Assembly (NCBI GenBank): GCA_000004985.1
Contig: GG738853.1
Length of the DNA: 64,000 nucleotides
Origin: Naegleria gruberi
Lineage: Eukaryota
Reading direction: 5' to 3' (one strand)
The translations under genes and the position numbers were made by a program. This document shows positions 12-64,000 of this stretch, piece after piece (within the stretch, counting starts at the first letter, position 1; every line of letters starts with the position of its first letter). The notes under the pieces are model-generated. The model saw only the letters and a list, made by a program, of their open reading frames with translations, was not told the origin of the DNA and did not search any database.

Positions 12-3000
12 TTGGAAATTGTGGCATGTGGTGCAGAACCTATCAGAGCAGAAACTATGGAAAGTTTCAGTACACTCTTCTCTGAATTTGGATTGAAAAA
101 ACAAGCCATGTATCCATGTTATGGATTGGCTGAGAGTACTCTCTATGTCACTGGTGTAAACTATATGAAAGGTTTCGACTTTACCACAATTGACAACAAG
201 AACCAATACATTATCAAGAATGGAACAGTCGAACAAACACAAACTCATCAAAAATTCGTTAATTGTGGTGTCAACTATGATGAAAATCAATCCATTAAAA
301 TTGTCGATCCAGAATCTTCTACAGAAATGGAGAATGGAAAGGTTGGTGAAGTTTGGTTGTCAAGTCCAAGTGTCGCTCAAGGTTATTGGGAGAAACCAGA
401 ACTTTCTCAAGAGGTTTTCCATGCACGAGTGGTTGGAGATGATAGGGAGTATCTCAGAAGTGGAGATTTGGGTTTCATGTTGAATGGAAACTTGTACATT
501 ACTGGTCGTCGTAAGGATGTCATTATTTTGAATGGTGTGAATTATTATCCTCAAGATGTAGAATTGGCATGTTCTAAATGTCATGCACAGATTAGAACTG
601 GGTGTGTGGTGGCTGTTAATATTGCTGATCGTGATGGACAGGATCGATTGGTGATAATTGCTGAAACTAAAGTTGTTTCGAATAGTGAGACACAAGTATT
701 GGAGAGTATTGTACAATCCATACGATCTGCAATTGCCGAATCGATGGGAATTCCAATGTATAATGCCCTATCGACCATCCTTCTCATGACTAAAGGAGGC
801 ATTCTCAAGACCACAAGTGGTAAACTGAGACGTCAACCAACTAAACAAGCATTTCTCAATAACAAACTTCCTCCAAAACTAATCGTTCACAGATGGGATC
901 AGGAGAAACTCTCAGATAGCGCTTCTCAACCAAGTACTCCAACAGAGATTGGATTGGCTAAAATTTGGAAAGAATTAACAGGAATTGATCCATCACTTTC
1001 GAATAACTTTTTCCTTTTGGGAGGAAGCTCTATGAGTTTGATTCAGCTAAAATCTAGAATCCAACATGTTTTCAATGTAATTATAAGTTTGACTGATTTG
1101 GTAATGTCGCCAACATTGCAATTGATGGCTAAATTGGTCGATCAACACAGCAATCAATGTAATACTAGCTCTGTACAAATTTCAAAGAGAGAAAGGACAA
1201 GTGACACTTTAGAATTATCAAACTCACAAACGAGATTCTGGTTCTTACATCACTTGATCGATAATCCTGCCATTCACAATGTTTTTGCAGGTGTTCGTTT
1301 GAAAGGTGACTTGGATAAACAAGCTTTAGAAAATTCCATTACCAAACTTGTAGAACGTCATGAAAGTTTACGTACAAGCTTTCAAGAAACAGAGATGTCA
1401 CCAATGCAACACATTCATTCTGAAATTTCTCTCAAATTAAATTCAATTAGTTTGAAACATCTCACTAGTGAAGAAGAAAAGAATTTGGAATTGAACAAGT
1501 TTCTCTTTGATGAGGTGAACGCACCATTCAACTTGAATGAAGCTCCTCTTCTCAGAGCTAACTTGATCGAAATGTCAGAGTGTGATCATGTTTTGGCCAT
1601 GACTTTCCATCATATCATAATCGATGGATGGTCCATGAATTTACTTGTTGAAGAGCTAGTTCAATACTATCTGGCTTTTAAGAATCATCAATCGCCAATT
1701 CTTCCACAAGTTCTTCAATATGGTGATTACACACTGTGGAGCAATCAACAACAATCAATGAATGAAACTCAATTAAAATATTGGGAAGAAAAACTCTCCA
1801 ATTTACCAGAATCTATCAAATTGCCAACAGAAGGCGAAAACTTATCCAAATCATTTGATGGATCTCATTTCTGGTTTGCAATCCCAGAAACTCTCGTTAA
1901 CTCCTTAAGAAAGATCGTTCAATCAAGAGGAGCCACACTCTACATGGGCATGTTAACTCTATTCAATATTTTACTGTACAGATATTCTGAACAGAATGAT
2001 ATTGCAATTGGAACACCTGTTGTGAATAGACAGCAACATGTTGAGTTGGAAGCACTGATTGGACTCTTGGTAAATACTCTGGTGATTAGAAATAATGTGA
2101 ATCCAGAGCATAATTTCATTGAAACTTTGATGGAAATCAAGTCAACTGTAATTGAAGCTTTTGAAAATCAAGATGTTCCTTTCCAGAAAGTTGTAGAAAG
2201 ATTGAAAGATTCACGTAATTCAATGGAGAATCCACTTTTTCAAGTCATGATGGCCATGCACAACCCACAACGGAAAATTGTCATGGATAATCTTGAAACT
2301 GAGCTAGTTAGAGTTGACAATGGATCATCCATGTTTAATTTAACACTTGAATTACAAGAAATAGAGGATGGAAGTTTACAATGTTGTTTCGAATATAGAA
2401 CTGATCTTTTCAAGAAGGAAACTATTGAAAGAATGGCTGGAAATCTTATTGAACTATTGAAATCAGCCACAACTGAATCGGATAACAAATCAATAAGCAA
2501 GTTGTCTTTCCTATCGAATTCTGAAGTTGAAACTTTGAATAATTTTGGAAATATCACCAATAATGATCTCAGTTCTTCAGTTTCGAATAGATTATTACAC
2601 GAACTCATTGAAGAGCAAGCTATCAAAACACCAGACAATACCGCCGTCTACTTCCAAGGTAAATCCTTCTCCTACCAACTTCTCGATCAAAAATCAGACC
2701 AATTAGCAAGGAGATTACGAGATATGAATCACTCCAAAAATCCCTTCATTGCCATTAGCATTGACAGAAGCTTTGAATTGATTGTGAGTTTAGTTGCCAT
2801 TCTCAAAGCTGGATTTGCCTATCTCCCTCTCGATCCAAGCTATCCACAAGAACGATTACTCTACGTGCTTGATGATTCACAAGCAGGTCTGTTAATAACT
2901 CAATCTAATTATTCTGAAAAATTCAAAGACTATCAAGGGAAAGTGTTGTCTATTGATAGATTCGTTTGGTCAGCAAGTAGCACTTCCACATCCTCCATTA

Positions 3001-4433
3001 GTATTGAGAAACCATTGACATCACCAAATGATTTGGCCTATCTCATTTACACTTCTGGCAGCACTGGAAATCCAAAAGGTGTCATGCTTTCTCACAGAAA
3101 TGTAAACAATACTCTCAATGGTCTAATTAAATTGTACGAAATGAAGCAAGATGACAAGTTTATTCATTACAGCTCCTATAGCTTTGATGTTTCATTGGAA
3201 GAGATTTTCCTTCCACTAATTACAGGTGCTTCGATTATTGTGGCCAATCCAAATATTCAATATCAGTTGGAGGAGCTTGTTGACTTGGTTGAGCAAACGA
3301 AGGCAACAATCATTGGTGTCACTCCAAGTTTGTGGCATGGTATAAGGTACCATGTTTTGAGGAATCCAAAATCAACTGAATCTTTAAGAATTGTCACTAT
3401 TGGAAATGAACCTGTTGATTCGAATGCAGTCAAAGAAATCCAACAAATGTGTCCCAATGCAACAGTATTCAATGTATGTGGAGGAACAGAGACTTGCATT
3501 GATTGGTCTCTCTTCAAGGTTCCAAAAGATTATGCACCTTTACAACAAGTAGTTCCTATTGGAAAACCAATTCCTGGTGTCAAATTGTATGTTTTGGATT
3601 CGAATAGAGAGTTAGTTCCAATTGGAGTACCTGGAGAACTCTACGTTGGAGGAAATGGTGTTGGAAATGGATATTGGAAAAATAGTGAGCTAACCTCCAA
3701 GAGCTTTATTGAAAATCCATTCCAAACTAAAGACGAAAAACAGAACAATGTTAATGGAAAACTATTCAAAACAGGAGATTTGGTTAAATGGTTACCTGAT
3801 GGAAATATGGTATTCATCTCCAGATTGGATCATCAAGTGAAATTAAGAGGATTCAGAGTTGAATTGGGTGAAATTCAAAATGTCATGAGGAAGAGTGGTC
3901 TCGTCAGGGAGGCAATTGTGATTCTCCAAGATGATGAGAATGTCAGTAACAAACAACTTGTTGGATACATTGTGTGTAATGAGGGAGAAACTAGACCGCA
4001 CTCAATCATCATACAGCTAGTCAATTCCTACTTGGAGAAACATCTGCCATACTATATGATTCCATCTCATATCATTTGCATTGAAAAAGTTCCAACAACC
4101 AATAATGGAAAATTGGATCGTAGAGCTTTACCAAGAGCAGTTGACCACCAGCAAACTAAAAGACTAGAAGAAAATATGGGAGAGGTCGATCCAGCTGATA
4201 TTCCAGAGAGTCATTGCAAGCTAAGACAAATTTGGTCCAAAGTACTCAAGATGAAGGAGGATTGCATTGGGTTGAGTGATAACTTTTTTGCAATTGGTGG
4301 AAATTCCATTCTCATTGCCCAATTGAGAAGCATGGTTCGTACAGAGTTGGGTATTCAGTTAGAGTTGAAGACTTTCTTTGAAAAATTAACAATCCAATCT
4401 ATGGCTACCCACATTGAAACTGTTAGCCAATAA
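12..4433 (+). CDS. Nonribosomal peptide synthetase-like megasynthase, 3' part only (5' end lies outside the window). Domain order: [C-terminal half of a FAAL-type adenylation domain]-T-C-A-T.
   Basis: Uninterrupted 1473-codon frame running from the window edge to a TAA stop at 4431-4433. FAAL/A-domain C-half motifs: PCYGLAEST and ITGRRKDVIILNGVNYYPQDVE. Carrier domain 1: LGGSSMSL (GGxS, around nt 1025-1045). Condensation domain: HHIIIDGWS (HHxxxDG, around nt 1609-1635). Second adenylation domain: LAYLIYTSGSTGNPKGV (A3, around nt 3040-3085), NVCGGTE, GELYVGGNGVGNGY, FKTGDL...RLDHQVKLRGFRVELGEIQ (A8) and PTTNNGKLDR (A10). Carrier domain 2: IGGNSILIAQL (around nt 4290-4315). No thioesterase or reductase domain lies between carrier domain 2 and the stop. 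Confidence 0.85.
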   Translation: MEIVACGAEPIRAETMESFSTLFSEFGLKKQAMYPCYGLAESTLYVTGVNYMKGFDFTTIDNKNQYIIKNGTVEQTQTHQKFVNCGVNYDENQSIKIVDPESSTEMENGKVGEVWLSSPSVAQGYWEKPELSQEVFHARVVGDDREYLRSGDLGFMLNGNLYITGRRKDVIILNGVNYYPQDVELACSKCHAQIRTGCVVAVNIADRDGQDRLVIIAETKVVSNSETQVLESIVQSIRSAIAESMGIPMYNALSTILLMTKGGILKTTSGKLRRQPTKQAFLNNKLPPKLIVHRWDQEKLSDSASQPSTPTEIGLAKIWKELTGIDPSLSNNFFLLGGSSMSLIQLKSRIQHVFNVIISLTDLVMSPTLQLMAKLVDQHSNQCNTSSVQISKRERTSDTLELSNSQTRFWFLHHLIDNPAIHNVFAGVRLKGDLDKQALENSITKLVERHESLRTSFQETEMSPMQHIHSEISLKLNSISLKHLTSEEEKNLELNKFLFDEVNAPFNLNEAPLLRANLIEMSECDHVLAMTFHHIIIDGWSMNLLVEELVQYYLAFKNHQSPILPQVLQYGDYTLWSNQQQSMNETQLKYWEEKLSNLPESIKLPTEGENLSKSFDGSHFWFAIPETLVNSLRKIVQSRGATLYMGMLTLFNILLYRYSEQNDIAIGTPVVNRQQHVELEALIGLLVNTLVIRNNVNPEHNFIETLMEIKSTVIEAFENQDVPFQKVVERLKDSRNSMENPLFQVMMAMHNPQRKIVMDNLETELVRVDNGSSMFNLTLELQEIEDGSLQCCFEYRTDLFKKETIERMAGNLIELLKSATTESDNKSISKLSFLSNSEVETLNNFGNITNNDLSSSVSNRLLHELIEEQAIKTPDNTAVYFQGKSFSYQLLDQKSDQLARRLRDMNHSKNPFIAISIDRSFELIVSLVAILKAGFAYLPLDPSYPQERLLYVLDDSQAGLLITQSNYSEKFKDYQGKVLSIDRFVWSASSTSTSSISIEKPLTSPNDLAYLIYTSGSTGNPKGVMLSHRNVNNTLNGLIKLYEMKQDDKFIHYSSYSFDVSLEEIFLPLITGASIIVANPNIQYQLEELVDLVEQTKATIIGVTPSLWHGIRYHVLRNPKSTESLRIVTIGNEPVDSNAVKEIQQMCPNATVFNVCGGTETCIDWSLFKVPKDYAPLQQVVPIGKPIPGVKLYVLDSNRELVPIGVPGELYVGGNGVGNGYWKNSELTSKSFIENPFQTKDEKQNNVNGKLFKTGDLVKWLPDGNMVFISRLDHQVKLRGFRVELGEIQNVMRKSGLVREAIVILQDDENVSNKQLVGYIVCNEGETRPHSIIIQLVNSYLEKHLPYYMIPSHIICIEKVPTTNNGKLDRRALPRAVDHQQTKRLEENMGEVDPADIPESHCKLRQIWSKVLKMKEDCIGLSDNFFAIGGNSILIAQLRSMVRTELGIQLELKTFFEKLTIQSMATHIETVSQ

Positions 4434-4558: not shown

Positions 4559-4631
4559 CTCCCCCTGGTGGGCTCGAACCACCGACCTGCAGATTAACAG
4601 TCTGACGCTCTACCGACTGAGCTAAGGGGGA
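4559..4631 (-). tRNA. tRNA-Asn (anticodon GUU)
   Basis: The reverse complement folds as a 73-nt cloverleaf. Acceptor stem TCCCCCT/AGGGGGA; D-arm GCTC-AGTCGGTA-GAGC; anticodon loop CTGTTAA, giving GTT; T-arm GGTGG-TTCGAGC-CCACC. The downstream flank has T-runs, as expected for a Pol III terminator. One mismatch at the outer pair of the anticodon stem. Confidence 0.8.
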
Positions 4632-4702
4632 TACATTAATAAAAGAAAATATTCCTTATTCACAATTAAGGCTTGTTTTTCTTGTTAAGATTTTGGCAAT
4701 CA

Positions 4703-4791
4703 CCAGTACAAAAGGCGACTGAGGGAATTGAACCCTCGACCCTCAGTTATCTCAGCATTTCTGCCTACAAGACTGATGCACTGCCACTGTG
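4703..4791 (-). tRNA. Intron-containing tRNA, most likely tRNA-Thr (anticodon UGU), with a ~17-nt intron after position 37
   Basis: The reverse complement gives acceptor GGCGGCT/AGTCGCC (one G-U pair); D-arm GCAC-AGTGGCA-GTGC; anticodon stem TCAGT...ACTGA, which pairs perfectly only if 17 nt (GGCAGAAATGCTGAGAT) are removed; loop CTTGTAA (anticodon TGT); T-arm GAGGG-TTCAATT-CCCTC. The isotype call depends on exactly where the intron is placed. Confidence 0.6.
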
Positions 4792-4873
4792 CTAAGCCGC
4801 CTTACACTTTATCATCAAATTTAAAATTTTCGAAAAACATGTGCAAGGACAAAGAATAATTCATTTGCAGAGT

Positions 4874-11436: not shown

Positions 11437-13205
<1,769 letters not shown>

Positions 13206-14884: not shown

Positions 14885-15868
14885 ATGGTCCTTCTCAAAT
14901 CAGACAAAATCAAACTCACCATTCTCTCAGCCAATAACCTTCGTTCCATGGATCGAAATGGATTCTCAGATCCATACACAAAGATTTTCATCATTCCTGA
15001 ACAAAATGTTGAATTTAAAACAAGGAAAATTAAGAAAACTTTAAATCCAGTTTGGAATGAACAATTTACATTTTCACCAACTGCTCATTATTGTCAGGTT
15101 TCTTGTTATTTATACGATTGGGATATGATTGGAAAGGATGATGTGTTGGGGATGGTCAATTTTGAAATTTCAGAAGAAAGGTTTCGGATAAATCAAGAAC
15201 ATACAATTACAAAGAATGTGGATGATCAGGAGGATGGAAAATATGGAACTGTCACTTTTAAATTTACCATTGAAAGATCCCAACAAGAAATTGACAAGTG
15301 GCACGATTTGAAACTTCCAGCCAATTACAAATTTGTAATGGATTCAGATCCAACTTTTAAAGCAGCAATTCCATACTATTTCGAATACATTCCAGACCAG
15401 CTCACAAGTGAGAAACTCAAAAATCTAGTTGGCTGCACCAAAATGGAGTTTAAATACATGGAAAATGTCTTTACAATTATGAGATCGCAACACAACAAGT
15501 CAATTGAGGAAATTCTACTCATGCACACAAGACCTTTCGAAAATTCGACCAAGTCAGACGAAATTATTTGTAGAAAGTGTGATCACTTTACCAAAGGTGA
15601 TATTTTGATGGGAAAATTCAAACAAGTTGTCATTGCTGATTATTATGTTGGATATGGAAAGGACACGAATGGACACGACGTGTTTTCATTGAGTTTCTTT
15701 ATGGTTGGAATGTTGGAAGAGGGTCTCTATGAAATTTATCATTATTGCAGGGAGGAGGGAAGTCATGAGAGTGAGGAGTTGAATATTGAGGAAGATGTCC
15801 TGATTAATAATGTGATACAATATACACAGATGAGGAAATTCATTTCCAAAAAGTCGTGTTTGCCTTAA
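14885..15868 (+). CDS. C2 domain protein (N-terminal Ca2+/lipid-binding C2 domain)
   Basis: ATG at 14885. KLTILSANNLRSMDRNGFSDPYTKIFIIP...KTRKIKKTLNPVWNEQFTF...YLYDWDMIGKDDVLG carries the classic C2 motifs (SDPY, NP.WNE, D.D..GKDD). Single exon, 327 aa. Confidence 0.8.
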   Translation: MVLLKSDKIKLTILSANNLRSMDRNGFSDPYTKIFIIPEQNVEFKTRKIKKTLNPVWNEQFTFSPTAHYCQVSCYLYDWDMIGKDDVLGMVNFEISEERFRINQEHTITKNVDDQEDGKYGTVTFKFTIERSQQEIDKWHDLKLPANYKFVMDSDPTFKAAIPYYFEYIPDQLTSEKLKNLVGCTKMEFKYMENVFTIMRSQHNKSIEEILLMHTRPFENSTKSDEIICRKCDHFTKGDILMGKFKQVVIADYYVGYGKDTNGHDVFSLSFFMVGMLEEGLYEIYHYCREEGSHESEELNIEEDVLINNVIQYTQMRKFISKKSCLP

Positions 15869-15943
15869 ATAAATATGAAATTGCATGAATTAATTAGTAC
15901 ATCAACAATCCGGCTAATAACTCTTTTCAACAAATATACGTAA

Positions 15944-16016
15944 GCGGCAGTAGATCAGTGGTTAGATCGTCCGCCTCACACGCGGAAGGTCGCGGGTTCG
16001 AACCCCGTTTGCCGTA
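15944..16016 (+). tRNA. tRNA-Val (anticodon CAC)
   Basis: 73 nt. Acceptor GCGGCAG/TTGCCGT; D-arm GATC-AGTGGTTA-GATC; anticodon stem-loop TCCGC-CTCACAC-GCGGA; variable loop AGGTC; T-arm GCGGG-TTCGAAC-CCCGT. Close to the eukaryotic tRNA-Val-CAC consensus as I recall it. A T-run lies downstream. Confidence 0.8.
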
Positions 16017-16405
16017 AACAAATTTTAATCTTTTAGTGCTTCTACGGTTCTTTTTCATACCATATGTTTATCTACGTTGTTTCCCAATCTTTATTCAAGA
16101 AACGATTGAGACGAGCTGTTCCTTAATATTATTTGCCAAAACTGAAATTTTTCAAATGCCTCACCATAATTAAATATTGGTTGGATAAAGTGTGTTAAGC
16201 ATGTTTTCCAGAAATTATGAAATATCTCATCAAGGTAAATATAGTTCAATGTTTGTTGGAATTGAATGGTTTCCTGAATAGGTGTTTTTGCTTTTGAAAA
16301 TGCAAAAAGTACCCAACACAAATAATGTTTGAAACAAAATATCATCTTTACTAAATATCAATAATTGTATTATTGAAAATCATTAATTCATGCCCTATAA
16401 AATTT

Positions 16406-16478
16406 TACGCAAGGCGGGGTTTGAACCCGCGACCTTCCGCGTGTGAGGCGGACGATCTAACCACTGATCTACTTGCGC
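16406..16478 (-). tRNA. tRNA-Val (anticodon CAC), inverted relative to the copy at 15944
   Basis: The reverse complement gives GCGCAAG-TA-GATCAGTGGTTAGATC-G-TCCGCCTCACACGCGGA-AGGTC-GCGGGTTCAAACCCCGC-CTTGCGT-A. It is identical to the first copy in the D and anticodon arms. It differs in acceptor pairs 4-69 and 5-68, where the changes are compensatory, and at one T-loop position. Confidence 0.8.
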
Positions 16479-16598
16479 TTACATTCAATATCTAAAAAGT
16501 TCTGTTGTGCGCTTAACAACCTTCTCATTAAGGGAGATAAAGGCATAGGGTTCTTTACAGAATATTACAACCCAAAAAAATTGATACAAAAGCTCATC

Positions 16599-17255
16599 AT
16601 GGGATTTGGATATCAACACAGATTGCACGTAACCATTGAGGCAGGTGTTGATCTTGTTGGCGCTGATAGAAATGGTCTCTCCGATCCAGTAAGTTTCATG
16701 ATATTCAATTATTAATTAAATGTTCCTAGTATTGTAAAATAATCGTTAATGGAGCTCTTCCTAGAAAAACAAAAACCATTAAAAAGACTTTGAATCCTGT
16801 ATGGAATGAAACTTTTAAATTCTATGCAATTTATACAACCGTAAAGTTGAAATTAAAATTTGAGGGTGAGTTTTAAATCATTACTACGAGTTATTGAATA
16901 ATATTATTATTAATATCAAATGATCTTAAAGTATTTGATTGGGATTTTATTCTTAAAGATGTAAGTAAACTTGTATATTTAATATTTATATTATTTAAAT
17001 ATATTGATCATCATTATATATTAGGATTTTATCGGAAGAGCTTCCCTTGATATTGATTCCAACGATATTCAACTCGATAAGGAATACACCCAAATATTAA
17101 AACTTCAAGATACAAACAGTGGAAGTATCAAAATTAAATATGTCATCATGGAAGGCTTGGATCCATCTGTAAAACATACCATTACTCGTTCTGTAACACC
17201 ATCTCCAAGACAACAAGTAAAACCAACCATGTTTGAACCAACGAACCAACTGTAA
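16599..17255 (+). CDS. C2 domain protein, paralog of the gene at 14885
   Basis: Four exons: 16599..16688, 16730..16865, 16932..16960 and 17025..17255. The introns are GTAAGT/GTGAGT...AG, 41-66 nt long, and the phases are consistent. The product reads MGFGYQHRLHVTIEAGVDLVGADRNGLSDP|YCKIIVNGALPRKTKTIKKTLNPVWNETFKF...KFE|VFDWDFILKD|DFIGRASLDIDS...TNQL*. It aligns motif-for-motif with the upstream C2 gene (RNG[FL]SDP, KTLNPVWNE, [YF]DWD). Confidence 0.7.
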
Positions 17256-17266
17256 ATGAAAAACCA

Positions 17267-18070
17267 ATGGTTGAGAAGGAAGCCACTCCAGTGGTTGTAG
17301 AAAAGGCCATTCCTATAGCAAGGAAAGTTCCTGAAACACCATCTCCAATTACAATTTCAACATTTATGGAACCACTTGAAGAATTTGAAGATGAGGAGAC
17401 AAAACCAATAGACGATTTTGAAGTTGAGATGGAGAAACGAGCTATCGAACTTATGGAACCACTTGAAGATATTAAAACTGAGGAGCAAGAACCAGTCGAA
17501 GTTGTTAATAAGGAAGTGGACGAGAGAAAGGCTGAGGAAAATATAGTGAATGATGGAATGATTTATTGGAATGAGCTCAATGAAAATTTTGCTCCATATT
17601 TACCTTCAGAATTCACCATGTTGAGTACTCATGCTTCAAATTCTGAATTATTGGCTGCATTCTCCAGTTTATCTGATAATGATATAATCTATGTTTCATA
17701 TAAGGACATTAGAGGGTATGATTTCCAAGATGCTCATCATGCTTACATGGAAACCTATATCACAGGATCAACTGCAGCTGCTGAAGAAGCTGGTGATGAA
17801 ATGGAAATTCTATACAGAGAGAAGGATATTACAGATATTTGTGAGGAAAAGTACACTCACCTCTATGAAACTCGTTGTCAAACAGCTAATAAGGAAAGTG
17901 GAAAGATTGTTCAACAAATTTGCATTTCTGGTCTTGCCAAGTGTGAAGTTATGGTAGGGTTTGAACTTATTACCTCTCAAATTGAATCTATTGATGACAA
18001 GTATTTGATTTTAATGAGAATTATTCAAAATACAAAGGTTTCCAATACTGTCGAAGGACATTCAGAGTAA
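17267..18070 (+). CDS. Acidic 267-aa ORF. It is either a separate gene or the frameshifted C-terminal part of the preceding C2 gene.
   Basis: An ATG-initiated ORF, MVEKEATPVVVEK...EPLEEFEDEETKPIDDFEVE..., begins 12 nt after the C2 gene's stop. Its frame is already open from nt 17237, overlapping the end of the C2 gene. The C2 paralog at 14885 has a long extension after its C2 domain, which is encoded this way here only if the two ORFs are fused. Confidence 0.4.
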   Translation: MVEKEATPVVVEKAIPIARKVPETPSPITISTFMEPLEEFEDEETKPIDDFEVEMEKRAIELMEPLEDIKTEEQEPVEVVNKEVDERKAEENIVNDGMIYWNELNENFAPYLPSEFTMLSTHASNSELLAAFSSLSDNDIIYVSYKDIRGYDFQDAHHAYMETYITGSTAAAEEAGDEMEILYREKDITDICEEKYTHLYETRCQTANKESGKIVQQICISGLAKCEVMVGFELITSQIESIDDKYLILMRIIQNTKVSNTVEGHSE

Positions 18071-18140
18071 ATTCAATAAATTCAAAGCTTAATATGTGTA
18101 TTTTATAACTTCAATAAAAGTACTTGCCTTAATGCCAACA

Positions 18141-18229
18141 GGGTGGTTAGCTCAGCGGTAGAGCACCGGATTGCAAAGATATTTGCAGCAGACATCCGAT
18201 GGTCACGTGTTCGATCCACGTACCACCCT
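18141..18229 (+). tRNA. Intron-containing tRNA-Cys (anticodon GCA)
   Basis: Acceptor GGGTGGT/ACCACCC; D-arm GCTC-AGCGGTA-GAGC; anticodon stem CCGGA, loop TTGCAA(A), anticodon GCA. A ~17-nt insertion (GATATTTGCAGCAGACA) sits before the 3' stem strand TCCGA. The intron contains TGC, complementary to the anticodon. T-arm ACGTG-TTCGATC-CACGT. A downstream T-run (TTTTGTTTTTT) follows. Confidence 0.65.
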
Positions 18230-18334
18230 TCCTTTTGTTTTTTACTCCTTTTTACTAAGGAAATAATATTAATCTGGATGATAACTAAGCTGTTAGTATT
18301 TGGTTTAATAAGTAAAGTTTGACTTCGTGTGACT

Positions 18335-20092
18335 TTAATAATGTAATTGTTCAATTGCCTCAACCCATGAATCTCTCTCCTCTGCACTGTCTACACAACA
18401 GTTCAAATTTCTCGCTCCCGATATTACCACAAATGTGAAACCCTTCTTTGATTCATCTTCCACATTTCTGGCTCTTGTCTTTGGATCAATTACTACAATG
18501 CCCTTTGGTTTTTCGTTTGGTGCATCCTTGGAGAAATAAAAGAGGAATTCCTTAAATAACAAACAGTACCTCTTCTTCCATGATTTAAAGTTTGAGCCTT
18601 GCTTCTCCATATAGCCTGCCTTGACAGGTCTCATGTGTTTCAGTGTTTGTACAGTTGGGTTAGAACCAAATCGCATCTCTGCTAATGCAGCTCCAGCATT
18701 TTCACCACTATTCTTGAGCAATGTTTGGACATCATTCTTTGATTTTTCATGTTGTTCTTTCAGTGTCAGTAAGGCAGAGGCAAGTTGAAGATTCTCCTTT
18801 CTAGATTCATCCAATTTTTCTTCCACTTCTTGTTTATCCTTTGTGTATTGCTCCGCCAAAGTTTGTCTTTCCTGTGCAAGTTTTTCTTCCATTTCTTGTC
18901 TTTCCTTTTCCAAAGTTTCAGCCATTTCTTGCTTTTCTTTTATCATGTTTTCTTCCATCTCTTTCTTTTCCTTCTCAAGCTTTTCTTTTTCCAAATTTAG
19001 AGATTTTCCCTCGGTAAATTGTTTCACCCTCTCAATTTCAATCGCCAATCGTTGTTTGAGGTCTTGAACCTGACTCTTGTAGGTATCCAACTCGGAGAGT
19101 GTACTATCGAGTTGAGATTTAGTTTCTTGTAATTGAGTTGTGGCTAAAATTTGAGATTGTTCCAAGTGGGAAACTCTTTCTTGAAGAGTGATGATCTTGG
19201 TTTGTTGATTTTCATTCTCTCGCTGCAACTTATCATTTGTAGTCAATAGTGAAGTGTTATCGCTTTCTAGTTTTTCAATTTGTTTCCTCATGTGAATTTC
19301 TAATTTTTTGTACATGTCAGTTGTTTCAAAGTTGGAAACATTCTTTATGAGCGCCAAGAATGCTTTCATTTCAGGTCTTGTATTTACATCAGGTATTTCC
19401 TTTCCTAGAATAGCAATAGAATTTTCAAATATTTCATTCTTGAGAGTGTCGAGTGTCTCTTCTGACTGTTCCAAAACCAAATCGGAATGGTCACAACTAT
19501 AAAAAATGGATGAAATCAGAGACATTATCAAGTGCTTCTCACCATAGAGAATATCTTCAGGCTCCAGCATGATACTCTTCTTGTTCAAATCCAATCTGTC
19601 TATTACTTCCAAAAGGGCTTGGATTTTATCACTATCTGTTGGAGCCTCAGAGATCATTGCCTCATCTTCATCTGTAAAACCCTTAGAGACTGTCTTTACA
19701 AGTTGGTGGAAGAGATAACCGTTTCTCCATTCCTCTCCAAGATTTGTTACCTTAATGTTTTTAGATTCCAACCTATTATTGACCCATCTGAGCAAGAGCG
19801 AGAGAGGTTGTTGATTCATAAATTCCACAACTGTTTCATCTGCCCTCTTCAATGCAATTGCATCAAAGAAGTGAACAATATTCAGTGATTTAGTCAAATC
19901 CTCTCTAATCAATTGCCACAAGATGGAATTTAATGCTGTTGGTCTCCCCTCGGCACAATCCTCTGGAGAAATGTTGACTACTACAATACCAAGACCCTTG
20001 GCATATCCTAGAACCATTGTATGATTCAAAACTCGTTTAATCTTGTTCAATTCTTGTTCCTTCTTTGGTTTACATATTTTACTCCATTCCAC
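18335..20092 (-). CDS. Calponin-homology-like N-terminal domain / central coiled-coil / C-terminal PH domain protein
   Basis: 585-codon minus-strand ORF. The N-terminal ~200 aa (GLGIVVVNISPEDCAEGRPTALNSILWQLIREDL) are CH-like. About 250 aa of heptad-rich E/K/Q sequence follow (LQERVSHLEQSQ...). C-terminal PH domain: KAGYMEKQGSNFKSWKKRYCLLFKEFLFYFSK...EERDSWVEAIEQL. The track start is a GTG, not an ATG. The real 5' end is unresolved. Confidence 0.6.
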   Translation of the reverse strand: MEWSKICKPKKEQELNKIKRVLNHTMVLGYAKGLGIVVVNISPEDCAEGRPTALNSILWQLIREDLTKSLNIVHFFDAIALKRADETVVEFMNQQPLSLLLRWVNNRLESKNIKVTNLGEEWRNGYLFHQLVKTVSKGFTDEDEAMISEAPTDSDKIQALLEVIDRLDLNKKSIMLEPEDILYGEKHLIMSLISSIFYSCDHSDLVLEQSEETLDTLKNEIFENSIAILGKEIPDVNTRPEMKAFLALIKNVSNFETTDMYKKLEIHMRKQIEKLESDNTSLLTTNDKLQRENENQQTKIITLQERVSHLEQSQILATTQLQETKSQLDSTLSELDTYKSQVQDLKQRLAIEIERVKQFTEGKSLNLEKEKLEKEKKEMEENMIKEKQEMAETLEKERQEMEEKLAQERQTLAEQYTKDKQEVEEKLDESRKENLQLASALLTLKEQHEKSKNDVQTLLKNSGENAGAALAEMRFGSNPTVQTLKHMRPVKAGYMEKQGSNFKSWKKRYCLLFKEFLFYFSKDAPNEKPKGIVVIDPKTRARNVEDESKKGFTFVVISGARNLNCCVDSAEERDSWVEAIEQLHY

Positions 20093-20841
20093 AACTCCTT
20101 CTATTAAATTATCGATGAGATGACTATTTTACATTCCATTCATTCGTTGTTATTGTTGTTTATCAAATTTCAGAAGAATGATTAGTGAAAACCTACATGA
20201 ATATTAAACCATCACTTAATCGACCATATAACTCATTTGAAGTTTCCAAATTATCAACACTAATTGGTTGCCACTCACCAATCGTTTCCTCCACTCGTTG
20301 TGGCATCTCTCTCAATCTCTTACTCATAACGGAATTAATAAACATGATAAAACACCTCTTCTCTCTCTTTGAAATCGTCGAGACCGAACCTGTTGCACTC
20401 ACCGATTTAATTAGTGGCTCGACACTCCTGAGTGAGGCTCCTCTTAACTTGATAGCCTCTTCACCTTCGAGCGTTGTTGTTTGTTGCTGCGAATTGTCGT
20501 TATTAAGGTTGCGAGATGACAACATTTTTTCTACAAGTAATAATTTTTTTAAAAATTCCTTAAATCCTTAACGTCTCCCTTCAACAGCCCAAAGATTTGG
20601 CGGGAGAAATCTTGCTCAATAATGCACTGTAAAATAATGATCCCCTTAATGGTTCTATTCGAAAGGAAAATTAGTTTATTTAAGTATTTAAAAGTTTTCA
20701 AGTTTTTTATAAAATGTTAAATTTTTGTATCTTTTAAAAAGAATTCATACTTTCAGTTTCAAAATACGAAATGAAGATAAACTTACTTAAAGAACATCAA
20801 GAAATTACAATTTATTTAATGAAAAATCAAAATGTAAAAAA

Positions 20842-59697: not shown

Positions 59698-59747
59698 NNN
59701 NNNNNNNNNNNNNNNNNNNNNNNNNNNNNNNNNNNNNNNNNNNNNNN
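59698..59747. other. Assembly gap (50 N)
   Basis: Run of N characters. Confidence 1.
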
Positions 59748-60391
59748 AGTCAACATTTACATTCCCATGGTACCATTTCTGATTACTAGGACATGAAATT
59801 AAATTCTATATCATTATAGATCATCTACATTATGATGGTAAAGTTTCAATAGGTGGTCCTTTTTCCAGATTTCCACATATTCATACAAGTTCATACAAGT
59901 TGACCCTATGATGGTTGAGGGAAGAAATCTTTAAATATGAAAGTTAAAATAAATTTGATATTCGATGTTTACTCATCAAATGGAACATTTTCATGTCAGG
60001 ATTCAATATGTTTTCATGAGAAACTCAAAAGTTATTGTTGACCTATTGTACCTCACAACTTCCCTTTTCACTTGATACTTTTATACCTACAGACATGAAC
60101 TTTTGAAATTTTATATGAAAGTGATTATGAATGTTGTTAATGATGATATAGACTATATAATCTCATTAAAGGATTTTGAAACTATCATCCTTCCTATGGT
60201 TTCATTTTACAATTTTTAATCTGACATTATTTACAAGGTTGATATTTTATAAATTGAAAAACTAAATATACCACATTGTTCTACTCATCATTTACAATCG
60301 AATGATATAAAATTTAATGATATTTGAATAAGTTTATATATTTGGGCTAGGGTTTGAACGTTGGGTTTAGAAGAATTCTATTTTTAGAATT

Positions 60392-60808
60392 GGGTTTGGG
60401 TTTGGGTTTGGGTTTGGGTTTGGGTTTGGGTTTGGGTTTGGGTTTGGGTTTGGGTTTGGGTTTGGGTTTGGGTTTGGGTTTGGGTTTGGGTTTGGGTTTG
60501 GGTTTGGGTTTGGGTTTGGGTTTGGGTTTGGGTTTGGGTTTGGGTTTGGGTTTGGGTTTGGGTTTGGGTTTGGGTTTGGGTTTGGGTTTGGGTTTGGGTT
60601 TGGGTTTGGGTTTGGGTTTGGGTTTGGGTTTGGGTTTGGGTTTGGGTTTGGGTTTGGGTTTGGGTTTGGGTTTGGGTTTGGGTTTGGGTTTGGGTTTGGG
60701 TTTGGGTTTGGGTTTGGGTTTGGGTTTGGGTTTGGGTTTGGGTTTGGGTTTGGGTTTGGGTTTGGGTTTGGGTTTGGGTTTGGGTTTGGGTTTGGGTTTG
60801 GGTTTGGG
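60392..60808 (+). repeat. (GGGTTT)n telomere-like hexamer array, about 70 units. It is preceded by degenerate variants and truncated by a 50-N gap at 60809-60858.
   Basis: Perfect 6-nt periodicity can be read directly. The lead-in at 60340-60391 carries degenerate copies (GGGCTAGGGTTTGAACGTTGGGTTTAG...). Confidence 0.95.
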
Positions 60809-60984
60809 NNNNNNNNNNNNNNNNNNNNNNNNNNNNNNNNNNNNNNNNNNNNNNNNNNTCTCATTGATACATGTCTAATTATCATGTTTTATGATATATA
60901 ATTGAAATAATTGAAATTTATCATATATATAGGGAGATAACCAATTAGGATGAGAGAAGGGGAAGTTACGCTCACAATTTACCA

Positions 60985-62986
60985 NNNNNNNNNNNNNNNN
61001 NNNNNNNNNNNNNNNNNNNNNNNNNNNNNNNNNNNNNNNNNNNNNNNNNNNNNNNNNNNNNNNNNNNNNNNNNNNNNNNNNNNNNNNNNNNNNNNNNNNN
61101 NNNNNNNNNNNNNNNNNNNNNNNNNNNNNNNNNNNNNNNNNNNNNNNNNNNNNNNNNNNNNNNNNNNNNNNNNNNNNNNNNNNNNNNNNNNNNNNNNNNN
61201 NNNNNNNNNNNNNNNNNNNNNNNNNNNNNNNNNNNNNNNNNNNNNNNNNNNNNNNNNNNNNNNNNNNNNNNNNNNNNNNNNNNNNNNNNNNNNNNNNNNN
61301 NNNNNNNNNNNNNNNNNNNNNNNNNNNNNNNNNNNNNNNNNNNNNNNNNNNNNNNNNNNNNNNNNNNNNNNNNNNNNNNNNNNNNNNNNNNNNNNNNNNN
61401 NNNNNNNNNNNNNNNNNNNNNNNNNNNNNNNNNNNNNNNNNNNNNNNNNNNNNNNNNNNNNNNNNNNNNNNNNNNNNNNNNNNNNNNNNNNNNNNNNNNN
61501 NNNNNNNNNNNNNNNNNNNNNNNNNNNNNNNNNNNNNNNNNNNNNNNNNNNNNNNNNNNNNNNNNNNNNNNNNNNNNNNNNNNNNNNNNNNNNNNNNNNN
61601 NNNNNNNNNNNNNNNNNNNNNNNNNNNNNNNNNNNNNNNNNNNNNNNNNNNNNNNNNNNNNNNNNNNNNNNNNNNNNNNNNNNNNNNNNNNNNNNNNNNN
61701 NNNNNNNNNNNNNNNNNNNNNNNNNNNNNNNNNNNNNNNNNNNNNNNNNNNNNNNNNNNNNNNNNNNNNNNNNNNNNNNNNNNNNNNNNNNNNNNNNNNN
61801 NNNNNNNNNNNNNNNNNNNNNNNNNNNNNNNNNNNNNNNNNNNNNNNNNNNNNNNNNNNNNNNNNNNNNNNNNNNNNNNNNNNNNNNNNNNNNNNNNNNN
61901 NNNNNNNNNNNNNNNNNNNNNNNNNNNNNNNNNNNNNNNNNNNNNNNNNNNNNNNNNNNNNNNNNNNNNNNNNNNNNNNNNNNNNNNNNNNNNNNNNNNN
62001 NNNNNNNNNNNNNNNNNNNNNNNNNNNNNNNNNNNNNNNNNNNNNNNNNNNNNNNNNNNNNNNNNNNNNNNNNNNNNNNNNNNNNNNNNNNNNNNNNNNN
62101 NNNNNNNNNNNNNNNNNNNNNNNNNNNNNNNNNNNNNNNNNNNNNNNNNNNNNNNNNNNNNNNNNNNNNNNNNNNNNNNNNNNNNNNNNNNNNNNNNNNN
62201 NNNNNNNNNNNNNNNNNNNNNNNNNNNNNNNNNNNNNNNNNNNNNNNNNNNNNNNNNNNNNNNNNNNNNNNNNNNNNNNNNNNNNNNNNNNNNNNNNNNN
62301 NNNNNNNNNNNNNNNNNNNNNNNNNNNNNNNNNNNNNNNNNNNNNNNNNNNNNNNNNNNNNNNNNNNNNNNNNNNNNNNNNNNNNNNNNNNNNNNNNNNN
62401 NNNNNNNNNNNNNNNNNNNNNNNNNNNNNNNNNNNNNNNNNNNNNNNNNNNNNNNNNNNNNNNNNNNNNNNNNNNNNNNNNNNNNNNNNNNNNNNNNNNN
62501 NNNNNNNNNNNNNNNNNNNNNNNNNNNNNNNNNNNNNNNNNNNNNNNNNNNNNNNNNNNNNNNNNNNNNNNNNNNNNNNNNNNNNNNNNNNNNNNNNNNN
62601 NNNNNNNNNNNNNNNNNNNNNNNNNNNNNNNNNNNNNNNNNNNNNNNNNNNNNNNNNNNNNNNNNNNNNNNNNNNNNNNNNNNNNNNNNNNNNNNNNNNN
62701 NNNNNNNNNNNNNNNNNNNNNNNNNNNNNNNNNNNNNNNNNNNNNNNNNNNNNNNNNNNNNNNNNNNNNNNNNNNNNNNNNNNNNNNNNNNNNNNNNNNN
62801 NNNNNNNNNNNNNNNNNNNNNNNNNNNNNNNNNNNNNNNNNNNNNNNNNNNNNNNNNNNNNNNNNNNNNNNNNNNNNNNNNNNNNNNNNNNNNNNNNNNN
62901 NNNNNNNNNNNNNNNNNNNNNNNNNNNNNNNNNNNNNNNNNNNNNNNNNNNNNNNNNNNNNNNNNNNNNNNNNNNNNNNNNNNNNN
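60985..62986. other. Assembly gap (2002 N)
   Basis: Run of N characters. The six-frame ORFs crossing it are artefacts. Confidence 1.
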
Positions 62987-63572
62987 CTGACATGTTGAAT
63001 GATTTCAAATTGTCATGAAACTGATACAGTGGTGTTTATTCACCATTAGTAAGGTACTGTATCAATTTCATAATGATCTGTATAGTAGATGTCATTGTCA
63101 CATCCCTGTAGGTATCAAGTGCATCAGCCATGTACCATGTATGATATGGATGAATGTCAAAGTGATATTAATGTATTTAATTATCATGTACAGATGTATT
63201 GGAAGTGCATTGAAGTGGAACAGAATTCTCTCTTCAATGTTAGAATAGGTCAGTTGACAAGTTGAATAGTTAATTTCCTGAAATGATACCAAAGTATTTG
63301 AAATTGATATATATTGTTATTAACATGATATATAAGGTGATATATTGATTTGAATTGAATTTGAAATGTTTTCATTGATATTCTAATTGTCTAATCTATT
63401 ATATGAAATTAACTTATATAAATCATTATAATGATGTAATATTATGTTATATTGTGATTATATATTCAATTTGGAGTATATTGATATATAATATATTGAT
63501 TTATAATGAGTATTTATTGAGATAATCAATTAAGATGAATAAAAGTCAAAATATTGGGTCTGGCTTTGGCGT

Positions 63573-64000
63573 GGGTTTGGGTTTGGGTTTGGGTTTGGGT
63601 TTGGGTTTGGGTTTGGGTTTGGGTTTGGGTTTGGGTTTGGGTTTGGGTTTGGGTTTGGGTTTGGGTTTGGGTTTGGGTTTGGGTTTGGGTTTGGGTTTGG
63701 GTTTGGGTTTGGGTTTGGGTTTGGGTTTGGGTTTGGGTTTGGGTTTGGGTTTGGGTTTGGGTTTGGGTTTGGGTTTGGGTTTGGGTTTGGGTTTGGGTTT
63801 GGGTTTGGGTTTGGGTTTGGGTTTGGGTTTGGGTTTGGGTTTGGGTTTGGGTTTGGGTTTGGGTTTGGGTTTGGGTTTGGGTTTGGGTTTGGGTTTGGGT
63901 TTGGGTTTGGGTTTGGGTTTGGGTTTGGGTTTGGGTTTGGGTTTGGGTTTGGGTTTGGGTTTGGGTTTGGGTTTGGGTTTGGGTTTGGGTTTGGGTTTGA
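63573..64000 (+). repeat. (GGGTTT)n telomere-like array, about 71 units, running to the window end with the G-rich strand 5'->3' toward the terminus
   Basis: Perfect hexamer repeat from 63573 to the last base. A degenerate lead-in GGGTCTGGCTTTGGCGTGGGTTT lies at 63556-63572. The repeat has the same orientation as the block at 60392. Confidence 0.9.

What the first reader, a model, noticed from the sequence alone, without database searches (positions are those of the whole stretch)
14885..17255. Inverted pair of tRNA-Val(CAC) genes with compensatory acceptor-stem substitutions, sandwiched between two paralogous C2-domain genes
The two tRNA-Val copies (15944-16016 on the plus strand, 16406-16478 on the minus strand) face each other across a ~390-bp AT-rich spacer. 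They differ at acceptor pairs 4-69 (G-C vs C-G) and 5-68 (C-G vs A-T). Both changes preserve base pairing, which indicates that both copies are under selection. Both also share an apparent G1-U72 wobble. The flanking protein genes are paralogs in tandem orientation. One is a single exon. The other is split by three short introns. Together this looks like an old local duplication with later intron gain or loss.
Basis: seen in the sequence. Interest (0 to 1): 0.5.

Follow-up and report, generated by a model that had tools for sequence, protein, structure and literature searches.

The report
Convergent tRNA-Val gene pair in Naegleria
Two intact valine tRNA genes of the amoeba Naegleria gruberi sit tail to tail between two calcium/lipid-binding (C2) domain genes; this is an ordinary arrangement, and the two flanking genes share only the common C2 domain.

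Summary
The window is Naegleria gruberi nuclear DNA. The tRNA observation is correct. Two tRNA-Val(CAC) genes lie at 15944-16016 (+) and 16406-16478 (-). They are convergent and separated by a 389-bp spacer with 27.5% GC. Both score far above the Rfam tRNA threshold (65.6 and 70.9 bits against 29).

The copies differ at seven positions, not four. Pairs 4-69 and 5-68 are changed on both sides, pairs 7-66 and 49-65 switch between G-U and G-C, and R57 is G or A. All 21 cloverleaf pairs stay intact in both copies, which is unlikely for random change (P about 4e-4 for six stem changes). G1-U72 is present in both. The flanks show no similarity, so any duplication is old.

The C2 gene interpretation is weak. 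Similarity is confined to the C2 domain (37% identity, 79 bits) and is no higher than to nematode, Balamuthia or vertebrate C2 domains. The C-terminal halves are unrelated orphans. The second gene has four introns and ends at 18070, not 17255, according to the NCBI model.

A 2010 survey already counted four such same-amino-acid +/- tRNA pairs in this genome. Verdict: real but ordinary.

The parts
15944..16016 (+). tRNA-Val(CAC) copy 1, 73 nt. Acceptor stem GCGGCAG/UUGCCGU. Three G-U pairs (1-72, 7-66, 49-65). G57.
   Evidence: ARAGORN; Rfam RF00005 at 65.6 bits against a gathering score of 29, full-length match with no non-standard pair flagged; 21 of 21 pairs standard.
16406..16478 (-). tRNA-Val(CAC) copy 2, 73 nt. 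Acceptor stem GCGCAAG/CUUGCGU. One G-U pair (1-72). A57.
   Evidence: ARAGORN; Rfam RF00005 at 70.9 bits; 21 of 21 pairs standard.
16023..16026 (+). TTTT run 7 nt after copy 1. Presumed RNA polymerase III terminator.
   Evidence: Read directly from the sequence. The function is inferred from general Pol III biology.
16399..16402 (-). TTTT run (on the minus strand) 4 nt after copy 2. Presumed RNA polymerase III terminator.
   Evidence: Read directly from the sequence. The function is inferred.
16017..16405 (.). 389-bp spacer between the two 3' ends, 27.5% GC, with no recognisable element.
   Evidence: The Rfam E-value scan finds nothing but the tRNAs. The two 3' flanks are no more similar than shuffled sequence: score 15 against 14.3 +/- 2.5.
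15940..15943 (+). GTAA directly abutting the 5' end of copy 1. This leader motif is shared with other tRNA genes in the window.
   Evidence: Thr, Val1 and Val2 end their 5' flank in GTAA, and Asn ends in TGTA.
16479..16482 (-). GTAA (on the minus strand) directly abutting the 5' end of copy 2.
14885..15868 (+). Single-exon gene of 327 aa. N-terminal C2 domain (aa 8-102) followed by an orphan C-terminal half. Its stop codon lies 76 nt before tRNA copy 1.
   Evidence: 100% identical to NCBI 'predicted protein [Naegleria gruberi]' P0001; Pfam C2 at 1.5e-24; only the C2 part has homologs among 1.84e9 representatives.
16599..18070 (+). Five-exon gene of 412 aa. Exons: 16599-16688, 16730-16865, 16932-16960, 17025-17216, 17279-18070. 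Introns of 41, 66, 64 and 62 nt. N-terminal C2 domain (aa 7-109) followed by an acidic, repeat-containing orphan C-terminal region. It is transcribed divergently from tRNA copy 2, with 120 bp between them.
   Evidence: Splice sites. The spliced product equals NCBI model P0013. Pfam C2 at 1.8e-25. Exon 5 is conserved, with an in-frame 3-nt indel, in a 97.6%-identical environmental strain.

Best explanation
These are two ordinary, intact nuclear genes for cytosolic elongator tRNA-Val(CAC) of Naegleria gruberi. Each is transcribed by RNA polymerase III from its internal A and B boxes and terminated at its own T4 run. They lie tail to tail in the 730-bp gap between two RNA polymerase II genes.

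The two copies are isodecoders: they share the anticodon and the body from position 6 to 56, and have different acceptor-stem sequences. They most likely descend from one gene by an old inverted local duplication. Both have stayed under purifying selection, because every difference that accumulated keeps the cloverleaf intact. Both would decode GUG.

What is shown: the sequence, the fold and the pattern of substitutions. What is inferred: transcription, processing, charging and the mode of duplication.

The two flanking genes each carry one Ca2+/lipid-binding C2 domain fused to unrelated lineage-specific sequence. They are not demonstrably tandem duplicates.
For: - Organism: gene 1 is 100% identical to an N. 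gruberi protein on a 695,587-bp contig. TTTGGG arrays at the window end match the candidate N. gruberi telomere repeat (PMC3622300).
- tRNA calls: at 65.6 and 70.9 bits against a gathering score of 29.
- Structure: 42 of 42 cells are paired. Two pairs changed on both sides and two on one side. Slid controls give only 31-53% pairing.
- Simulation: seven random substitutions keep all 21 pairs in only 1.2-1.4% of trials. Six substitutions placed in stems do so in 3-5e-4 of trials.
- The valine identity elements A73, A35, C36 and G45 (PMC9976931) are present in both copies.
- B box: GGTTCGAACCC in copy 1 and GGTTCAAACCC in copy 2. TTTT lies 4-7 nt downstream of each gene.
- The shared GTAA leader is also found at the Thr gene in the window, with TGTA at the Asn gene.
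- There is no flank similarity, so the divergence is old. For comparison, a 97.6%-identical strain already shows 10-22% change in the intergenic DNA next to an invariant tRNA-Cys.
- Such pairs are a counted class in this genome: 4 observed against 0.51 expected.
Against: - No expression, processing or aminoacylation data were available.
- tRNAscan-SE with its isotype-specific and pseudogene tests could not be run.
- No other Naegleria tRNA-Val sequence could be retrieved. I therefore cannot say whether each acceptor-stem variant also exists elsewhere in the genome, or whether G1-U72 is the species norm.
- With no flank homology, in-place inverted duplication is not distinguishable from independent arrival of two dispersed family members.
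- Copy 1 has three G-U pairs and the lower score, so a slightly weakened copy cannot be excluded.
Confidence: 0.85

Rival explanations
1. The whole block is the product of one old local duplication: a C2 gene plus a tRNA-Val gene was duplicated, and the C2 copies later diverged by intron gain or loss.
For: - Two C2-domain genes are immediate neighbours on the same strand, which is unlikely by chance for a domain family of modest size (inference).
- BLASTP between the C2 domains is significant: 37% identity over 126 aa, 79 bits.
- A 56-nt stretch encoding KKTLNPVWNE is 77% identical at DNA level (D1).
Against: - The tRNAs are inverted while the C2 genes are direct, so one simple duplication cannot give both.
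- The C-terminal 60% of each protein is unrelated: best 12.7 bits, E = 7.
- Gene 1's C-terminal half has no homolog anywhere.
- The C2 domains are not each other's nearest relatives. For gene 1, an ENA protein (80.5 bits) and a Haemonchus protein (79.7 bits) score above gene 2 (79.0 bits). For gene 2, gene 1 ranks about 24th, behind Balamuthia tricalbin-2 and vertebrate MCTP1.
- KKTLNPVWNE is the most conserved C2 motif in all eukaryotes, as the hits show.
Confidence: 0.25
2. The two tRNA genes did not duplicate in place. They are members of two different dispersed tRNA-Val(CAC) isodecoder families that came to lie next to each other, or were partly homogenised by gene conversion.
For: - There is no similarity in the 5' or 3' flanks beyond a generic GTAA leader.
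- Positions 6-56 are identical while the acceptor stem carries 5 of the 7 differences. A mosaic pattern like this is compatible with conversion of the body.
- N. gruberi has about 900 tRNA genes, so multiple Val(CAC) families are likely.
Against: - Same-amino-acid pairs within 1 kb are about 8-fold over-represented in this genome. The usual explanation for that is local duplication.
- The invariant core can equally be explained by stronger selection on the D and anticodon arms.
- No other copy could be examined.
Confidence: 0.3
3. One copy, most likely copy 1 with three G-U pairs, is a decaying or non-functional duplicate.
For: Copy 1 scores 5 bits lower than copy 2 and has G-U at 7-66 and 49-65 where copy 2 has G-C.
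Against: - 65.6 bits is more than twice the gathering score and higher than the Thr (58.5) and Cys (54.7) genes of the same window.
- There are no mismatches or indels, and the anticodon loop, T loop and terminator are intact.
- The B box of copy 1 is the closer of the two to consensus.
Confidence: 0.07
4. The inverted pair works as a unit beyond supplying tRNA. It might act as a chromatin boundary between the two Pol II genes, or as a source of hairpin RNA if Pol III reads through copy 1 into the antisense of copy 2.
For: - The geometry fits: 73-nt arms at 90% complementarity, 389 nt apart, placed between a gene's 3' end and the next gene's promoter.
Against: - Each gene has its own T4 terminator within 7 nt, so read-through should be rare.
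- The pattern of selection is fully explained by tRNA function.
- No evidence of any kind was obtained for a boundary or small-RNA role.
Confidence: 0.04

Closest known systems
Eukaryotic cytosolic tRNA-Val(CAC) genes (Rfam RF00005; Pol III type 2 genes)
   Same: - 73-nt cloverleaf with a 5-nt variable loop AGGUC.
- Anticodon loop CUCACAC and discriminator A73.
- Internal A and B boxes and a T-run terminator.
- The anticodon arm and variable loop are nearly the same as I recall for human tRNA-Val-CAC (from memory, not tested).
   Different: - G1-U72 instead of the G1-C72 that I recall for yeast and human tRNA-Val.
- A11-U24 in the D stem instead of the usual pyrimidine-11/purine-24.
- Both features are shared by the two copies, so they are probably lineage traits rather than damage. 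This could not be checked in other Naegleria genes.
Clustered same-amino-acid tRNA gene pairs surveyed across eukaryotes (Bermudez-Santana et al. 2010, PMC2888827)
   Same: Two tRNA genes for the same amino acid less than 1 kb apart in + then - orientation. For N. gruberi that survey lists 77 pairs in all, 12 of them same-amino-acid (8 ++, 4 +-, 0 -+), against 1.0, 0.5 and 0.5 expected.
   Different: Nothing essential. By definition this pair should be one of the four +- pairs already counted. The survey did not describe individual pairs or their sequence differences.
Single-C2-domain Ca2+-dependent lipid-binding proteins; C2A domains of MCTP1, synaptotagmins and tricalbins
   Same: Both flanking proteins have a full-length Pfam C2 domain (E = 1e-24 to 1e-25) with the SDPY and DWD..KDD loop motifs. 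They are 37-45% identical to MCTP1, synaptotagmin and tricalbin C2 domains.
   Different: Each has only one C2 domain. There is no MCTP transmembrane region (PF08372) and no SMP or other partner domain. The C-terminal 170-280 residues have no detectable homolog.

Membership tests
tRNA (Rfam RF00005) | Full-length match to the covariance model above the gathering score | tested here: met
   70.9 and 65.6 bits against 29, model positions 1-71 of 71, not truncated.
tRNA (Rfam RF00005) | Cloverleaf with all four helices formed by standard pairs | tested here: met
   21 of 21 pairs standard in both copies. Slid controls give 31-53%.
tRNA-Val, elongator | Valine anticodon with A35 and C36, discriminator A73, G45 | tested here: met
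   The anticodon is CAC by ARAGORN. A73 and G45 are read from the sequence. The determinants are as listed in PMC9976931.
tRNA-Val, elongator | Isotype-specific score and pseudogene test of tRNAscan-SE 2.0 | not testable with these tools
   tRNAscan-SE is not among the tools. The Infernal score with the general model is used as a proxy.
Active Pol III type 2 gene | Internal A and B boxes and a downstream run of at least four T | tested here: met
   - A box: TAGATCAGTGG, one departure from TRGCNNAGTGG at position 11.
- B box: GGTTCGAACCC in copy 1 and GGTTCAAACCC in copy 2.
- TTTT lies 7 and 4 nt downstream.
- The consensus sequences are taken from general knowledge.
Active Pol III type 2 gene | Mature, CCA-tailed, aminoacylated transcript | not testable with these tools
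   No RNA data were available.
C2 domain (Pfam PF00168) | Match above the Pfam gathering score | tested here: met
   86.6 and 89.6 bits against 22.
Tandem-duplicated paralogous gene pair | Similarity along the gene, not only in a widespread shared domain | tested here: not met
   The alignment is confined to aa 8-129 of gene 1 and 8-126 of gene 2. The C-terminal parts give 12.7 bits, E = 7.
Tandem-duplicated paralogous gene pair | The two members are each other's closest relatives | tested here: not met
   Among 283 retrieved C2 proteins, gene 2 is third for gene 1 and gene 1 is about 24th for gene 2. Closer or equal matches come from Haemonchus, Balamuthia and vertebrates. Caveat: the other N. 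gruberi C2 proteins were not sampled systematically.
MCTP / synaptotagmin / tricalbin | Multiple C2 domains plus a transmembrane or SMP region | tested here: not met
   Pfam finds a single C2 domain and nothing else in either protein.

The most novel reading that the evidence does not exclude
The two features shared by both copies, a G1-U72 wobble at the top of the acceptor stem and a purine-11/pyrimidine-24 (A11-U24) pair in the D stem, could be fixed lineage-specific traits of Naegleria tRNA-Val(CAC). In that case they would have co-evolved with its ValRS, RNase P or CCA-adding enzyme, and the acceptor-stem isodecoders would differ functionally, for example in charging efficiency or fragment production. 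The evidence shows only that both copies carry these features and are constrained. It does not show that they matter.
Probability: 0.1. Interest if true: 0.3.

Novelty: already known. Interest (0 to 1): 0.08.

Why it matters
It matters little. The locus is a textbook example of two isodecoder tRNA genes kept intact by compensatory change, in a published and annotated genome whose tRNA gene pairs have already been tallied.

Its practical value is as a correction.

The shared G1-U72 and A11-U24 features could be a small lead for anyone cataloguing tRNA identity elements in Heterolobosea.

Tried and rejected
1. **Relatives of the tRNA in public collections.**
   - A 41-nt and then a 31-nt core pattern gave 0 matches in metagenome contigs.
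   - The 31-nt pattern gave 0 matches in viral contigs and 0 in genome contigs.
2. **Synteny in other Naegleria.**
   - The look-up of encoding contigs has no record of the two N. gruberi proteins.
   - It also has no record of the short ORFs that overlap the tRNAs.
3. **Last homolog search.** I used a chimeric query (CH-PH protein plus dihydrolipoamide dehydrogenase) with too strict an E-value. Coiled-coil words swamped the candidate list. It returned only one protein, on a 3.2-kb ENA contig that stops 870 nt short of the tRNA pair. It served only as a yardstick for strain-level divergence.
4. **Extended inverted repeat.** The repeat finder reported 96 nt at 84%. I rejected this as evidence for a larger duplication. 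Beyond the tRNAs only a GTAA leader shared with other tRNA genes matches, and the flank alignments score no better than shuffles.
5. **Hidden element in the spacer.** The Rfam E-value scan found nothing. The sub-threshold Plastid-ycf2 and Tymo tRNA-like hits are just the tRNAs themselves.
6. **Fold-level rescue of whole-gene paralogy.** Single-sequence AlphaFold2 models of both proteins were unusable (pLDDT 30.5 and 31.4), so no fold search was run. PDB sequence searches of the C-terminal halves gave nothing meaningful.
7. **Minimum-free-energy folding of single tRNAs.** It gives a non-cloverleaf D arm and weak z-scores. I disregarded this as uninformative for tRNAs.
8. **Shuffle control in the count of structure pairs.** It has no power with two sequences (128 of 500). 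My substitution simulation replaces it.
Full report
**Source of the window.** The single-exon gene at 14885-15868 is 100% identical over 327 residues to an NCBI 'predicted protein [Naegleria gruberi]' on a 695,587-bp contig. The spliced second gene equals another N. gruberi model. The window has about 33% GC and short GT..AG introns. It ends in (TTTGGG)n arrays, which is the candidate telomere repeat reported for N. gruberi (PMC3622300). The window is therefore nuclear DNA of this heterolobosean amoeba.

**The observation.** The scores are 65.6 and 70.9 bits against a gathering score of 29. These are higher than the Thr (58.5 bits) and Cys (54.7 bits) genes in the same window. The two genes are convergent. 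Their 3' ends face each other across 389 bp of 27.5% GC DNA.

A direct comparison shows seven differences, not four:

| Position(s) | Copy 1 | Copy 2 | Kind of change |
|---|---|---|---|
| 4-69 | G-C | C-G | both sides |
| 5-68 | C-G | A-U | both sides |
| 7-66 | G-U | G-C | one side |
| 49-65 | G-U | G-C | one side |
| 57 | G | A | purine in the T loop |

G1-U72 is present in both copies. Positions 6-56 are identical.

**Is this more than chance?** On the cloverleaf, 42 of 42 cells are standard pairs, while sliding the partners by 1-3 columns gives 31-53%. In a simulation, seven random substitutions leave all 21 pairs intact in 1.2-1.4% of trials. Six substitutions placed in stems, as observed, do so in 3-5 of 10,000 trials. 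The differences are therefore filtered by selection for the fold.

**Gene anatomy.**
- Both copies carry the valine determinants A73, A35, C36 and G45 listed in PMC9976931.
- The B box is GGTTCGAACCC in copy 1 and GGTTCAAACCC in copy 2.
- The A box is TAGATCAGTGG in both.
- A TTTT run lies 7 nt after copy 1 and 4 nt after copy 2.
- Immediately 5' of both genes is GTAA. The same four bases abut the Thr gene, and TGTA abuts the Asn gene.

The 96-nt inverted repeat reported by the repeat finder is therefore the tRNA body plus a generic leader motif. It is not a trace of a larger duplicated segment.

Alignments of 50-200 nt of the 5' flanks and 194 nt of the 3' flanks score no better than shuffled sequence. 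The Rfam E-value scan finds nothing else in the spacer.

For scale, I compared the window with an environmental contig that is 97.6% identical to window 17348-20567. It has zero changes in the neighbouring tRNA-Cys gene but 10% and 22% differences in the adjoining intergenic DNA. Flank homology in this genome is lost quickly. The seven constrained differences therefore point to an old split.

**Mechanism.** Each gene is an independent RNA polymerase III unit producing an elongator tRNA that reads GUG. The pair most likely arose by an old inverted local duplication. I cannot exclude that two members of dispersed isodecoder families ended up side by side, or that gene conversion keeps the body identical. 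No expression or charging data exist here, so function is inferred.

**Context in the literature.** A 2010 survey of eukaryotic tRNA gene organisation lists the following for N. gruberi (PMC2888827, supplement 2):
- 924 tRNA loci
- 77 pairs closer than 1 kb, against 39 expected
- among same-amino-acid pairs, 8 ++, 4 +- and 0 -+, against 1.0, 0.5 and 0.5 expected

The present pair is + then - and 389 bp apart, so by definition it is one of those four. The arrangement is uncommon but already catalogued.

**The flanking genes.** Both proteins have one full Pfam C2 domain. They align at 37% identity over 126 residues (79 bits), entirely within that domain. The remaining 60% or so of each protein shows no similarity: best 12.7 bits, E = 7.

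An exhaustive HMMER search of gene 1 against 1.84 billion representatives returns 6,052 hits. The best-matching stretch of each of the 150 listed lies within residues 3-157. Its C-terminal half is therefore an orphan.

I also compared single-domain BLASTP scores over 283 retrieved proteins. Gene 2 ranks behind an ENA protein and a Haemonchus protein as a match for gene 1. Gene 1 ranks about 24th for gene 2, behind Balamuthia tricalbin-2 and vertebrate MCTP1 C2A domains (names). The two domains are thus no closer to each other than to C2 domains of animals.

Adjacency alone still leaves some room for a very old tandem origin; I put it at about 0.25.

The gene structure also needs correcting. 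The NCBI model (412 aa) uses a fourth intron, 17217-17278, and continues to 18070. Without that intron, an 804-nt ORF would start 12 nt after the stop codon, which is implausible. The downstream exon is conserved, with an in-frame 3-nt indel, in the environmental strain.

**What failed.**
- No other Naegleria tRNA-Val sequence or syntenic locus could be retrieved.
- Single-sequence structure models of both proteins were unusable.
- PDB sequence searches of the C-terminal halves were empty.

**Verdict.** The tRNA observation is real and correctly read, but it describes an ordinary, already catalogued kind of tRNA gene pair in an annotated genome. The claim of C2 paralogs from a local duplication with intron turnover is not supported. 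The only mildly unusual points are the G1-U72 and A11-U24 pairs shared by both copies. Their generality in Naegleria could not be tested.

Noticed in passing
window 12-4433 (+): A 1,473-aa open frame with Condensation, AMP-binding and PP-binding domains (E = 1e-99, 1e-95 and 1e-27). This is a non-ribosomal peptide synthetase module in an amoeba genome and may have been acquired horizontally.
   Followed up: no
window 60390-60808 and 63554-63999: Two perfect or near-perfect (TTTGGG)n arrays of about 70 units, in the same orientation. They are separated by N gaps (60809-60858 and 60985-62986), with another gap at 59698-59747. TTTGGG is the candidate N. gruberi telomere repeat (PMC3622300). Two arrays inside one scaffold suggest either scaffolded chromosome ends or an interstitial array.
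   Followed up: partly
window 4632-4635, 4802-4805, 15940-15943, 16479-16482: Four of the five tRNA genes in the window have (T/C)GTA(A) directly abutting the mature 5' end. Exact GTAA is seen at Thr, Val1 and Val2. At this base composition about 0.6% per site would be expected. It may be a Naegleria Pol III start-site or leader motif.
   Followed up: partly
window 18141-18229 (+): An intron-containing tRNA with anticodon GCA (Cys) and discriminator U73. Rfam finds it (54.7 bits) but ARAGORN misses it. It is identical in a 97.6%-related environmental strain, while its flanks differ by 10% and 22%.
   Followed up: partly
window 4559-4631 (-) and 4713-4801 (-): A tandem pair on the same strand, 81 bp apart: tRNA-Thr(TGT), with an intron of about 17-19 nt, followed by tRNA-Asn(GTT). 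The Thr gene is followed by only TTT, so co-transcription is conceivable.
   Followed up: no
L001 1-3198 = window 20567-17348: An ENA metagenome contig (sample ERZ929261, project PRJEB11402) is 97.6% identical to this N. gruberi locus and encodes a 99%-identical CH-PH protein. A close relative of strain NEG-M is therefore present in that environmental sample.
   Followed up: partly
window 15953-15956 with 15965-15968, and the same positions in the copy at 16406-16478: The D stem of both tRNA-Val copies is GAUC/GAUC. This gives an A11-U24 pair (purine-11/pyrimidine-24). From memory, that pair is typical of initiator rather than elongator tRNAs.
   Followed up: no
window 17364-17419 and 17451-17506: A 56-nt direct repeat (77% identical, 87 nt apart) inside exon 5 of the second C2 gene. 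It encodes a repeated acidic motif: MEPLEEFEDEE in one copy and MEPLEDIKTEE in the other (D2).
   Followed up: no
window about 11650-13205 (+): A dihydrolipoamide dehydrogenase gene (Pyr_redox_2 and Pyr_redox_dim). Its first exon encodes [13 protein letters not shown]...GGTCLNVGC and is separated from the rest by a short intron. It would make a good synteny anchor for this locus.
   Followed up: no
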